Positions 12,055 to 16,100 of a stretch of DNA of 64,000 nt are shown here, one piece after another (position 1 is the stretch's first letter; each line of letters opens with the position of its first letter). A program made the position numbers and the translations under genes. The DNA is from the human T2T-CHM13v2.0 reference genome, Homo sapiens, in NCBI RefSeq assembly GCF_009914755.1, contig NC_060948.1; one strand, given 5' to 3'. The notes beneath the pieces are model-generated. The model saw only the letters and a program-made list of their open reading frames with translations. It was not told the DNA's origin and did no database searches.

Positions 12055-13072
12055 ATGGGGAAAAAAACAGAACAGAAAAACTGGAAACTCTAAAATGCAG
12101 AGCAACTCTCCTCCTCTAAAGGAGTGCAGTTCCTCACCAGCAATGGAACAAAGCTCAACAAAGAATGACTTTGACGAGCTGAGAGAAGAAATGTTCAGAT
12201 GATCAAACTACTCTGAGCTATGGAAGGACATTCAAACCAAAGGCAAAGAAGTTGAAAACTTTGAAAAAAATTCAGAAGAATGTACAACTAGAATAACCAA
12301 TACAGAGAAGTTCTTAAAGGAGCTGATGGAGCTGAAAACCAAGGCTCCAGAACTACTAGAAGAATGCAGAAGCCTCAGGAGCCAATGCGATCAACTGGAA
12401 GAAAGGGTATCAGCGATGGAAGATGAAATGAATGAAAGGAAGTGAGAAGGGAAGTTTAGAGAAAAAAGAATAGAAAGAAATGAGCAAAGCCTCCAAGAAA
12501 TATGGGACTATGTGAAAAGACCAAATCTATGTCTGATTGGTGTACCTGAAAGTGATGGGGAGAATGGAACCAAGTTGGAAAACACTCTGCAGGATATTAT
12601 CCAGGAGAACTTCCCCAATCTAGCAAGGCAGGCCAACGTTCAGATTCAGGAAATACAGAGAACGCCACAAAGATACTCCTCGAGAAGAGCAACTCCAAGA
12701 CACATAATTGTCAGATGCACCAAAGTTGAAAAGAAGGAAAAAATGTTAAGGGCAGCCAGAGAGAAAGGTCGGGTTACCCTCAAAGGGAAGCCCATCAGAC
12801 TAACAGCGGATCTCTCGGCAGAAACCCTACAAGCCAGAAGAGAGTGGGGGTCAATATTCAACATTCTTAAAGAAAAGAATTCTCAACCCAGAATTTCATA
12901 TCCAGCCAAACTAAGCTTCATAAGTGAAGGAGAAGTAAAATACTTTACAGACAAGCAAATGCTGAGAGATTTTGTCACCACCAGGCCTGCCCTAAAAGAG
13001 CTCCTGAAGGAAGTGCTAAACATGGAAAGGAACAACCGCTACCAGCCACTGCAAAATCATGCCAAAATGTAA
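12055..13072 (+). pseudogene. L1 ORF1, disrupted (frameshift in the A run after ATG; TGA at ~12443)
   Basis: The C-terminal 186 aa (KRPNLCLIGVPESDGENG...NHAKM) are open; the upstream part is broken. Confidence 0.92.
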
Positions 13073-13135
13073 AGACCATCGAGACTAGGAAGAAACTGCA
13101 TCAACTAACGAGCAAAATAACCAGCTAACATCGTA

Positions 13136-16100
13136 ATGACAGGATCAAATTCACACATAAGAATATTAACTTTAAATGTAAATGGACTAAATGCTCCAAT
13201 TAAAAGACACAGACTGGCAAATTGGATAAAGAGTCAAGACCCATCTGTGTGCTGTATTCAGGAAACCCAATTCACGTGCAGAGACACACATAGGCTTAAA
13301 ATAAAAGGATGGAGGAAGATCTTCCAAGCAAATGGAAAACAAAAAAAGACAGGAGTTGCAATCCTAGTCTCTGATAAAATAGACTTTAAACCAACAAAAA
13401 TCAAAAGAGACAAAGAAGGCCATTACATACTGGTAAAGGGATGAATTCATCAAGAAGAGCTAACTATCCTAAATACATATGCACCCAATACAGTAGCACC
13501 CAGATTTATAAAGCAAGTCCTGAGTGACCTATAAAGAGACGTAGACTCCCACACAATAATAATGGGAAACTTTAACACCACACTGTCAACATTAGACAGA
13601 TCAACGAGACAGAAAGTCAACAAGGACACCCAGGAATTGAACTCAGCTCTGCACCAAGTGGACGTAATAGACATCTGCAGAACTCTCCACCCCAAATCAA
13701 CAGAATATACATTTTGTTCAGCACCACACCTATTCCAAAATTGACCACATACTTGGAAGTAAAGCTCTCCTCAGCAAATGTAAAAGAACAGAAATTATAA
13801 CAAACTATCTCTCAGACCACAGTGCAATCAAACTAGAACTCAGCGTTAAGAATCTCACTAAAAACTGTTCAACTACATGGAAAGTGAACAATCTGCTCCA
13901 GAATGACTACTGGGTACATAATGAAATGAAGACAGAAATAAAGATGTTATTTGAAACCAACGAGAACAAAGACACAACATACAATGCATGTCTGGGATGC
14001 ATTCAAAGCAGTGTGTAGAGGGAAATTTATAGCACTAAATGCCCACAAGAGAAAGCAGAAAAGATCCAAAATTGACACCCTAACATCACAATTGAAAGAA
14101 CTAGAAAAGCAAGAGCAAACACATTCAAATGCTAGCAGAAGGCAAGAAATAACTAAAATCAGAGCAGAACTGAAGGAAATAGAGACACAAAAAACCCTTC
14201 AAAAAATTAATGAATCCAGGAGCTGGTTTTTTGAACGGATCAACAAAATTGATAGACCACTAGCAAGACTAAGAAAGAAAAAAGGAGAGAAGAATCAAAT
14301 AGGCACAATAAAAAATGATAAAGGGGATATCACCACAGATCCCACAGAAATACAAACTACCATCAGAGAATACTACAAACACCTCTATGCAAATAAACTA
14401 GAAAATCTAGAAGAAATGGATAAATTCTTTGACACATACACCATCCCAAGACTAAACCAGGAAGAAGTTGAATCTCTGAATAGACCAATAACAGGAGCTG
14501 AAATTGTGGCAATAAGCAACAGCTTACCAACCAAAAAGAGTCCAGGACCAGAGAGATTCACAGCCAAATTCTACCAGAGGTACAAGGAGGAATTGGTACC
14601 ATTCCTTCTGAAACTATTCCAATCAATAGAAAAAGAGTGAATCCTTCCTAACTCATTTTATGAGGCCAGCATCATCCTGATACCAAAGCCAGGCAGAGAC
14701 ACAACCAAAAAAGAGAATTTTAGATCAATATCCTTGATAAACCTTGATATAAAAATCCTCAATAAAATACTGGCAAAAGGAATACAGCAGTACATCAAAA
14801 AGCTTATCTACCATGATCAAGTGGGCTTCATCCCTGGGATCCAAGGCTGGTTCCATATACACAAATCAATAAATGTAATCCAGCATATAAACAGAGCCAA
14901 AGAAAAAAAACCACATGATTATCTCAATAGAAGCAGAAAAGGTCTTTGACAAAATTCAACAACCTTCATACTAAAAACTCTCAATAAATTAGGTATTGAT
15001 GGGATGTATTTCAAAATAATAAGAGCTATCTATGACAAACCCACAGCCAATATCATCCTGAATGGGCAAAAACTGGAAGCATTCCCTTTGAAAACTGGCA
15101 CAAGACAGGGATGCCATCTCTTATCACTCCTATTCAACATAGAGTTGGAAGTTCTGGTCAGGGCAATCAGGGAGGAAAAGGAAATAAAAGTTATTCAATT
15201 AGGAAAAGAGGAAGTCAAATTGTCCCTGTTTGCAGGCGACATGATTGTATATCTAGAAAACCCCATTGTCTCAGCCCAAAATCTCCTTAAGCTGATAAGC
15301 AACTTCAGCAAAGTCTCAGGACACAAAATCAATGTACAAAAATCACTAGCATTCTTATACACCAACAACAGACAAACAGAGAGCCAAATCATGAGTGAAC
15401 TCCCATTCACAATTGCTTCAAAGAGAATAAAATACCTAGGAATCCAACTTACAAGGGACGTGAAGGACCTCTTCAAGGAGAACTACAAACCATTGCTCAA
15501 GGAAATAAAAGAGGATACAAAGAAATGGAAGAACATTCCATGCTCATGGGTAGGAAGAATCAATATCGTGAAAATGGCCCTACCACTGAAGGTAATTTAT
15601 GGATTCAATGTCATCCCCATCACGCTACCAATGACTTTCTTCACACAATTGGAAAAAGCTACTCTAAAGGTCATATGGAACCAAAAAAGAGCCCGCATCA
15701 CCAAGTCAATCCTAAGCCAAAAGAACAAAGCTGGAGGTATCACACTACCTGACTTCAAACTATACTACAAGGTTACAGTAACCAAAACAGCAGAGTACTG
15801 GTACCAAAACAGAGATATAGATCGATGGAACAGAACAGAGCCCTCAGAAATAACGACGTGTATCTACAACTATCTGATCTTTGACAAACCTGAGAAAAAC
15901 AAGCAATGAGGAAAGGATTCCCTATTTAATAAATGGTGCTGGGAAAACTGGCCAGCCATATGTAGAAAGCTGAAACTGGATCCCTTTCTTACACCTTATA
16001 CAAAAATCAATTCAAGATGGATTAAAGACCTAAACGTTATACCTAATGCCATAAAAACCACAGAAGAAAACCTAGGCATTACCATTCAGGACATAGGCAT

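What the first reader, a model, noticed from the sequence alone, without database searches (positions are those of the whole stretch)
12222..13429. 1.2-kb ectopic gene-conversion tract between the spacer L1 and the arm L1
Seen: two independent L1 insertions (different TSDs) differ at many positions in the 5' UTR and most of ORF2. Yet 12222-13429 matches 54068-55275 (offset 41,846) with only two differences found (ttct/tgct at ~12312; aaagg/aaaag at ~12438). The ORF1 186-aa fragments are identical, and both share non-consensus changes including the ORF1 TGA, agatgcacc, aattctcaa, accgctacc and gatcttcc. Identity stops abruptly at cattacata|c versus |a. Inference: recent non-allelic conversion between palindrome arm and spacer, so the spacer is not fully isolated from homogenisation.
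Basis: partly seen in the sequence, partly recalled or inferred. Interest (0 to 1): 0.8.

Follow-up and report, generated by a model that had tools for sequence, protein, structure and literature searches.

The report
Y-chromosome L1-to-L1 gene conversion tract
A 1.2-kb stretch of one old L1 retrotransposon on the human Y chromosome was overwritten by copying from a neighbouring L1 at the edge of an inverted repeat, which is a real but familiar kind of DNA-repair footprint.

Summary
Window 12222-13429 and 54068-55275 differ at 2 of 1208 bases, while the rest of the two L1 elements differs at about 9%. No one of 10000 permutations came near this.

It is not subfamily consensus. The two copies share 29 derived states, and 22 of them occur in at most 1 of 56 other genomic L1 copies.

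The framing needs correcting.
- The inverted repeat has arms of only about 13 kb. Its outer boundary lies inside the L1, not beyond it.
- The left-arm L1 copy, which runs off the window, differs from the right copy at 20 sites in a 400-bp island inside the tract.
- So the spacer L1 matches the right copy only.

Two tests point to the right-arm L1 as donor and the spacer L1 as recipient. These are mutation load and rare variants shared with the left copy.

A published table lists the spacer as a human-specific inversion (PMC11168930). Ancestrally the spacer L1 therefore lay head-to-head about 10 kb from the donor.

Estimated age is about 1-1.6 My (95% limits 0.1-4.7). This is a new example of a known process.

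The parts
12222..13429 (+). Converted tract in the spacer L1 (recipient copy). It may extend to 13442 if 13430 is a later change.
   Evidence: 2 differences in 1208 bp against 54068-55275. The mutation load is of the arm type.
54068..55275 (+). The matching stretch in the right L1 (inferred donor).
   Evidence: Its 3' part shares 6 rare states with the left copy, which the spacer element's own sequence does not do elsewhere.
11149..17194 (+). Spacer L1 (S): full length with broken reading frames and its own 14-bp target-site duplication. Its 5' end lies 193 bp inside the spacer.
52996..59005 (+). Right L1 (R): an intact insertion with a matching target-site duplication (A-run plus CTGAGCCA) on both sides.
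1..1188 (-). 5' end of the left L1 (L). The element continues to window position -4822, outside the window.
   Evidence: It is identical to R up to R 54884 and again over 55286-56239, with 2 differences. It is diverged elsewhere.
1..10955 (.). Left arm of the inverted repeat. It continues outward to about window -2056.
   Evidence: Reverse complement of 43253-54183 with 2 substitutions and 3 indels. The inner boundary at 10955/10956 is sharp.
43253..56240 (.). Right arm of the inverted repeat, about 13 kb. Its outer end lies inside R.
   Evidence: The arm sequence is present only twice in the genome.
10956..43252 (.). Spacer of 32.3 kb, listed in print as a human-specific inversion (chrY 21897979-21929614 = window 11979-43614).
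   Evidence: for the boundaries. PMC11168930 Supplementary Data 1, row 334.
54885..55285 (+). Island where the right copy (identical to the spacer copy) differs from the left copy at 20 sites, inside otherwise identical arms.
15116..15143 (+). Candidate second, short shared patch between S and R (R 56958-56985). It has 4 rare states shared by S and R while L keeps the common state.
   Evidence: This is weak evidence; the outer bounds are 15058-15157.

Best explanation
A break in the spacer L1 (S) was repaired by homologous recombination, using the 91%-identical right L1 (R) as template. About 1.2 kb of R (L1 positions about 1073-2285: most of ORF1, the inter-ORF spacer and the start of ORF2) was copied into S without changing R. 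Shown: the tract is real, it consists of shared private changes, and S matches R and not the left copy L. Inferred from load and rare-variant sharing: the direction R to S. Inferred from a published inversion call: at the time of the event S probably lay head-to-head about 9.9 kb from R. The spacer was later flipped by recombination between the 13-kb arms, which gives today's 41.8-kb direct arrangement. The 2-3 differences since then put the event at roughly 1-1.6 My (95% limits 0.1-4.7 My). R and L sit at the outer edge of an inverted repeat whose homogenised zone ends inside the L1. The right arm is the original site because R has a complete target-site duplication. The left copy is joined to unrelated flanking DNA.
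For: Tract reality. Independent insertions. Not subfamily consensus: S, R and L all fall in the same sub-group of the panel at 10 of 10 main diagnostic sites. S and R share 29 derived states in the tract, and 22 of these are seen in at most 1 of 56 panel copies. The best other genomic L1 is 97% identical (40 of 5995 candidates were scored). S matches R and not L: the left copy is 98% identical, and 20 sites in 54885-55285 have R=S but L different. Direction, test 1 (load against the panel majority): the tract has 26-28 derived sites of 1191 (panel chosen on S's flank) or 30 of 1202 (panel chosen on R's flank). R's adjacent flanks have 31 of 1215 (2.55%) and S's have 62 of 1215 (5.1%). P(at most 28 | S rate) = 2e-6 and P(at most 28 | R rate) = 0.38. 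The region is not intrinsically slow: panel medians are 1.47, 1.60, 1.26 and 1.34% for a2, b, c and d2. Direction, test 2: within the island, the tract shares 6 rare states with L's diverged version. R and L also share 14 rare states of 1460 columns beyond the arm boundary. S's own sequence shares rare states with arm copies at only about 0.26% (9 of 3487 columns), so about 1 is expected and 6 are observed (P about 7e-4, my Poisson arithmetic on the counts; not run as a call). Inversion: PMC11168930 Supplementary Data 1 lists chrY 21897979-21929614 as 'Human inversion' (I saw the table row and the methods passage). Age: using rates quoted.
Against: Three changes are private to S (12312, 12438, 13430), and all lie within 217 bp of the tract's 5' end or at its 3' end. 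None lies in the central 991 bp. This fits patchy repair at tract ends better than later random mutation, and patchy repair does not fix the direction. The 3' end of the tract (between 55275 and 55289) coincides within about 35 bp with the point where L switches from diverged to identical with R (55285/55286). The simple model leaves this as a coincidence; I estimate 5-10% allowing for six boundary pairings. The load test assumes that post-insertion decay is uniform along the element. No outgroup species and no reads were available, so the pre-conversion state of S is not seen directly. The inversion call has fuzzy ends (it starts 1 kb inside S), and whether the orientation is polymorphic among men was not established.
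Confidence: 0.72

Rival explanations
1. Reverse direction: the spacer L1 donated the 1.2 kb to the right L1. Ordinary arm-to-arm conversion then carried the first 817 bp on to the left copy, leaving the 400-bp island as the not-yet-homogenised remainder.
For: It explains why the island's 3' end coincides with the tract's 3' end. It also keeps the arms as one contiguous homogenised block up to 56240.
Against: The tract's load is half that of S's own flanks (26-28 observed against 60.8 expected, P = 2e-6). The tract's island part shares 6 rare states with L where about 1 is expected for S-type sequence. L's island load (17-19 of 394-401 columns) is above R-type expectation, about 10. It needs two events instead of one.
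Confidence: 0.08
2. A multi-partner or multi-step history. One version: abutting R-derived tracts in S (up to L1 position about 2285) and in L (from about 2286 to 3245) arose in one repair episode with template switching. Another version: an old arm-to-spacer copy acted as a reservoir that later converted R back.
For: The abutting boundaries lie within about 35 bp of each other. There is a second S+R cluster of rare states at R 56958-56985 and a pair of S+L rare states at 57335 and 57364. These suggest repeated exchange among the three L1s.
Against: The reservoir version needs an old and a recent tract with the same two ends. There is no zone of intermediate divergence or rare-state sharing flanking the tract: 0 S+R+L rare states in 955 columns of d1. 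The one-episode version has two different recipients and no established mechanism that I can point to. The coincidence is only moderately improbable.
Confidence: 0.1
3. Assembly or polishing artefact: consensus chimerism placed R-derived sequence into S.
For: This is a single assembly, and repeats are the usual place for such errors. I could not inspect reads.
Against: The tract is far shorter than the long reads used and is flanked on both sides by sequence 9% different from R, so reads anchor uniquely. About 100 sites would have to be altered in a block. S keeps 2-3 private differences inside the tract. R differs from L in the island, so the arms were not collapsed either.
Confidence: 0.03
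4. No exchange at all: ORF1 is simply conserved, or both elements carry subfamily-diagnostic bases.
For: Both elements belong to the same panel sub-group.
Against: 22 shared states are seen in at most 1 of 56 panel copies. The best unrelated genomic copies are 97% identical, against 99.8% here. Panel copies show no reduced decay in this region.
Confidence: 0.01

Closest known systems
Non-allelic (ectopic) gene conversion between dispersed transposable-element copies. Alu: Aleshin and Zhi 2010, as summarised in PMC6598467 (passages read). HERV LTRs, including Y-linked ones: PMC4921805 (listing and abstract only). L1-to-L1 cases in the older literature are recalled, not looked up.
   Same: A sharply bounded block of near-identity in two independently inserted, otherwise diverged copies lying close together on one chromosome. 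PMC6598467 reports that rates rise for copies within 10 kb and on the sex chromosomes. That fits the about 9.9-kb ancestral spacing inferred here.
   Different: The partners here are 6-kb L1s, not Alus or LTRs. The tract is long (1.2 kb) for partners only 91% identical. One partner sits at the edge of an inverted repeat and the other in its spacer.
Arm-to-arm gene conversion in human Y palindromes P1-P8 (PMC3723533, listing and abstract only; PMC8600007, passages read).
   Same: Intrachromosomal, non-reciprocal copying on the non-recombining Y. The L and R copies here are themselves kept identical in this way over about 13 kb.
   Different: The tract joins a spacer element to an arm-edge element, not arm to arm. 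The partners are not duplicates of one another. The repeat is not one of the named palindromes and is absent from the palindrome table I searched.
Recurrent spacer inversions between Y inverted repeats (10.1101/2022.12.01.518658, passages read) and human-specific Y inversions (PMC11168930).
   Same: A spacer flanked by highly identical inverted arms that has changed orientation. Arms as short as 8.7 kb are reported to mediate this.
   Different: That work concerns orientation, not sequence transfer into the spacer. This locus is not among the inversions named in the passages of the text that I read.

Membership tests
Non-allelic gene-conversion tract | A block of near-identity with abrupt ends inside paralogs that are otherwise evenly diverged | tested here: met
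   2 differences in 1208 bp against 9.0% elsewhere. 0 of 10000 permutations reach it.
Non-allelic gene-conversion tract | The partners are not products of one duplication | tested here: met
   The target-site duplications and flanks of S and R differ.
Non-allelic gene-conversion tract | The shared states are private to the pair, not family consensus | tested here: met
   22 of 29 shared derived states occur in at most 1 of 56 panel copies. Both elements are in the same sub-group.
Non-allelic gene-conversion tract | Non-reciprocal: the donor is unchanged and the recipient overwritten | tested here: inconclusive
   Load and rare-variant sharing indicate that R is unchanged and S overwritten.
Non-allelic gene-conversion tract | Orthologs or other haplotypes show the unconverted state | not testable with these tools
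   No ape or other human Y sequence could be fetched.
Named human Y palindrome (P1-P8), arm-to-arm conversion | The tract joins the two arms of a named palindrome | tested here: not met
   One partner lies in the spacer. P1-P3 lie at 22.86-27.08 Mb, distal to the window. No human chrY row with these coordinates is in the palindrome table of PMC11168930.
Inverted repeat maintained by conversion (palindrome in the broad sense) | Inverted arms of at least 8 kb, at least 98% identical, around a spacer | tested here: met
   The arms are about 13 kb. There are 4 substitutions outside the island over about 12.6 kb, and the spacer is 32.3 kb. The arms occur only twice in the genome.
Chimeric L1 made during retrotransposition | The mosaic arose at insertion, so no near-identity to one specific neighbouring copy is expected | tested here: not met
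   The tract is 99.8% identical to the neighbouring R and at most 97% to the best of the other copies scored.

The most novel reading that the evidence does not exclude
The three L1s form an exchange hub at the edge of an old, ape-wide inverted repeat. The homogenised zone of the arms advances and retreats in steps inside the L1 (identical, a 5% island, identical, a 6% zone that still shares rare variants, then unrelated). Arm-edge sequence also leaks into the spacer through the spacer's own L1. The abutting R-derived tracts in S (ending at about L1 position 2285) and in L (starting at about 2286) would then be the footprint of one multi-partner repair event, not a coincidence. Dispersed repeats would thus set and move palindrome boundaries and couple spacers to arms.
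Probability: 0.12. Interest if true: 0.55.

Novelty: new member of a known kind. Interest (0 to 1): 0.35.

Why it matters
It is a clean, datable example of sequence moving from the edge of a Y-chromosome inverted repeat into its supposedly single-copy spacer through a pair of old L1 elements. Population surveys of Y palindromes discard interspersed repeats before analysis (PMC8600007), so exchanges of this sort are invisible to them. Such exchanges could distort L1 ages, paralogous-variant phasing and spacer mutation-rate estimates. The locus also shows an inverted-repeat boundary lying inside an L1, with graded zones of identity. That bears on how such repeats are born and how their edges move. 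No gene is involved, the L1s are dead, and the process itself is well known, so the general importance is modest.

Tried and rejected
- Left island from a fourth L1: a genome search with the island found no near-identical source. The best other hit was 96% (40 of 2921 candidates scored). Rejected, with that caveat.
- Left island as the old spacer sequence swapped in reciprocally: rejected. It shares 6 rare states with R's version, interleaved with its 12 private ones.
- S and R as different subfamilies with diagnostic sites to type the tract: they fall in the same panel sub-group, so no such sites exist.
- Raw panel minor-allele rates as a regional normaliser: these were biased by how each panel was chosen. 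I replaced them with within-panel medians on segments not used for selection.
- Old kinship of L and R reaching the 3' end: polarised with a fourth in-window L1 fragment, the last 1.4 kb shows none (RL 6, SR 4, SL 8).
- Homology beyond the L1 3' ends: none between 3.2 kb of left flank and 5 kb of right flank, or the whole window.
- Microhomology at the inner junction 10955/10956: none evident.
- A name for this inverted repeat: nothing in the passages found in the T2T-Y preprint, the 43-Y preprint or the 2026 population preprint. bioRxiv supplements are closed and may list it.
- The published version of the 43-Y paper is not held.
- A third 30-locus panel could not be cut out. A 10-locus panel was used instead.
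Full report
**Observation.** Window 12222-13429 and 54068-55275 are 1208 bp long and differ at two positions, 12312 (T/G) and 12438 (G/A). A gapped alignment of the two L1 elements (11149-17194 and 52996-59005) has 438 differing columns of 6054. Outside the tract, 100-column windows mostly show 82-98 matches (three show 98-99); inside they show 98-100. The first differences outside the tract are at 12221 and 13430, and the perfect run is 991 bp. In 10000 permutations of the differing columns, the longest perfect run averaged 88 and never exceeded 203. 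The longest run with at most two differences never exceeded 260. The binomial log10 probability of at most two differences in 1208 sites at the outside rate of 9.0% is -45.6.

**Setting.** The window holds an inverted repeat. Positions 1-10955 are the reverse complement of 43253-54183, with two substitutions (4146, 10857) and three indels. The inner boundary is sharp, and the spacer is 10956-43252. The spacer L1 (S, plus strand) starts 193 bp inside the spacer.

- The window is G000:C24:21886001-21950000, and the genome can be searched.
- That search showed that the left-arm counterpart of the right L1 (R) is only 98% identical to the tract.
- I fetched the missing left flank and aligned S, R and the left copy (L, minus strand, window 1188 to -4822).

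**Pattern along the L1, in R coordinates.**

| Segment | R coordinates | Pattern |
|---|---|---|
| a | 52996-54067 | L = R; S differs at 113 columns |
| b | 54068-54884 | All three identical, except the two private S changes |
| c (island) | 54885-55285 | R = S; L differs at 20 sites |
| d1 | 55286-56239 | L = R again, except 55499 and 55889; S differs at about 74 |
| beyond | from 56240 | All three differ; L against R is about 6% |

- Beyond the 3' ends, the flanks of L and R share no detectable homology.
- The homogenised arms are therefore only about 13 kb (43253-56240). Their outer boundary lies inside the L1, and the tract straddles an island where the arms themselves differ.
- The arm sequence occurs only twice in the genome.
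- S has a 14-bp target-site duplication.
- R has an A-run plus CTGAGCCA on both sides, so R is an intact insertion at its original site.
- L shares R's 5' flank but has an unrelated 3' flank, so the left arm is the derived copy (the last step is inference).

**Not subfamily identity.** I used three panels of genomic L1 copies.

- 27 were chosen as best matches to the tract.
- 29 were chosen on S's 3' flank.
- 10 were chosen on R's 3' flank.

The panels contain two sub-groups. S, R and L all carry the same sub-group's state at the 10 main diagnostic sites. In the tract, S and R share 29 states that differ from the panel majority. Of these, 22 occur in at most 1 of 56 panel copies. The best unrelated copies are 97% identical to the tract (40 of 5995 candidates scored).

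**Direction.** Two independent lines point to R as donor.

*Mutation load.* Panels chosen independently of the segment being scored gave these counts of derived sites:

| Sequence | Derived sites | Source |
|---|---|---|
| Tract | 26-28 of 1191 | |
| Tract | 30 of 1202 | |
| R's adjacent flanks | 31 of 1215 (2.55%) | |
| S's adjacent flanks | 62 of 1215 (5.1%) | |

- At S's rate, 60.8 derived sites are expected in the tract (P of at most 28 = 2e-6). At R's rate, 30.4 are expected (P = 0.38).
- The region is not intrinsically slow. Panel copies chosen on another segment have median loads of 1.47, 1.60, 1.26 and 1.34% in a2, b, c and d2.

*Rare-variant sharing.*
- In the island, the tract shares 6 rare states with L's diverged version. 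These are interleaved with 12 states private to L and 4 rare (7 derived) states private to R and S.
- R and L show the same relationship beyond the arm boundary: 8 and 6 shared rare states in 605 and 855 columns. The corresponding counts are 2 and 5 for S with R, and 1 and 2 for S with L.
- S's own sequence shares rare states with arm copies at only 9 of 3487 columns. About one is expected in the island and six are seen (Poisson P about 7e-4, my arithmetic on those counts).
- So the island part of the tract belongs to the R/L lineage. S is the recipient, and L's island is an old, unhomogenised piece of L.

The kinship of L and R fades toward the 3' end. In the last 1.4 kb, polarised with a fourth in-window L1 fragment, the groupings are RL 6, SR 4 and SL 8.

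**Geometry and date.**
- Supplementary Data 1 of PMC11168930 lists 'chrY 21897979 21929614 Human inversion'. This equals window 11979-43614, essentially the spacer.
- The methods say human-specific variants were found by intersecting the calls of six ape species against this same reference.
- Ancestrally, then, S lay at the other end of the spacer, head-to-head with R and about 9.9 kb from it. This gives a natural reason why S carries R's version of the island and not L's.
- It also fits the reported rise of non-allelic conversion for copies within 10 kb and on the sex chromosomes (PMC6598467).
- Whether the conversion preceded the inversion is inference; I put it at about 60%.
- With 2 differences in 1208 bp or 3 in 1221 bp, and rates of 0.76-0.92e-9 per base per year, the age is 0.9-1.6 My, with 95% limits of 0.1-4.7 My.

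**Unexplained.**
- The tract's 3' end lies between 55275 and 55289. The point where L switches from diverged to identical with R is 55285/55286. The two lie within about 35 bp of each other.
- Under the simple model this is a coincidence, which I rate at 5-10% given six possible boundary pairings.
- The reverse direction would explain it but fails both direction tests.
- A reservoir model needs two tracts with identical ends and finds no flanking zone of intermediate divergence.
- A single multi-partner repair event cannot be excluded.
- The three private S changes all lie near the tract ends, which suggests patchy repair more than later mutation.

**Comparison with what is known, and novelty.**
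- Non-allelic conversion among dispersed repeats is established (PMC6598467, PMC4921805). So are arm-to-arm conversion in Y palindromes (PMC3723533, PMC8600007) and spacer inversions (10.1101/2022.12.01.518658, PMC11168930).
- This is a new, well-resolved instance that combines them, not a new process.
- I found no description of this inverted repeat or of this tract. This rests on searches, the passages, and the palindrome table. bioRxiv supplements were closed and may hold more.

**Limits.**
- No ape or other human Y sequence was available.
- No reads were available.
- No curated L1 subfamily library was available. Element names such as L1PA are therefore not tested here.

Noticed in passing
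window 1-10955 and 43253-56240 (left arm continues to about -2056): An inverted repeat with arms of about 13 kb and a 32.3-kb spacer. Outside one island the arms differ by 4 substitutions. The repeat is present only twice in the genome, and its outer boundary lies inside an L1. It is absent from the human rows of the palindrome table of PMC11168930.
   Followed up: partly
window 54885-55285 against L031 (window -701 to -1101): A 400-bp island of 5% divergence between the two arms, flanked on both sides by identical sequence. It shares 6 rare variants across arms, so it is old L-R divergence that escaped homogenisation. Its 3' end abuts the end of the S tract.
   Followed up: yes
window 56241 to about 57450 against the left copy: Beyond the identical arms, L and R are about 6% diverged but still share 14 rare variants in 1460 columns. 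The last 1.4 kb shows no such kinship. This suggests an older, larger zone of exchange or an old hybrid junction further 3' in the L1.
   Followed up: partly
window 15116-15143 (R 56958-56985) and R 57335, 57364: A cluster of 4 rare states shared by S and R only, within 28 bp, and a pair of rare states shared by S and L only, 29 bp apart. These are possible further short exchanges among the three L1s.
   Followed up: partly
window 11979-43614: Listed in print as a human-specific inversion relative to six apes (PMC11168930 Supplementary Data 1). The call starts about 1 kb inside the spacer L1 and ends about 360 bp inside the right arm, presumably because alignment ends are fuzzy in repeats.
   Followed up: partly
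window 4166-4177 and 8820-8830: The arms differ by a 12-bp GGAA-type microsatellite length change and an 11-bp poly-A length change. A substitution at 10857 lies 98 bp from the inner boundary.
   Followed up: no
window 33471-34907: A 5'-truncated L1 3' fragment. Its two parts meet at 34304/34305 in opposite orientations, an arrangement that looks like twin priming. A 259-bp direct repeat (32532-32790 and 34908-35166, 94% identical) begins right after it.
   Followed up: no
window 10955/10956 and 11149: The inner junction of the derived left arm lies only 193 bp from the 5' end of the spacer L1. Both ends of the copied segment therefore lie in or beside L1 elements. No microhomology is seen at the junction.
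   Followed up: partly
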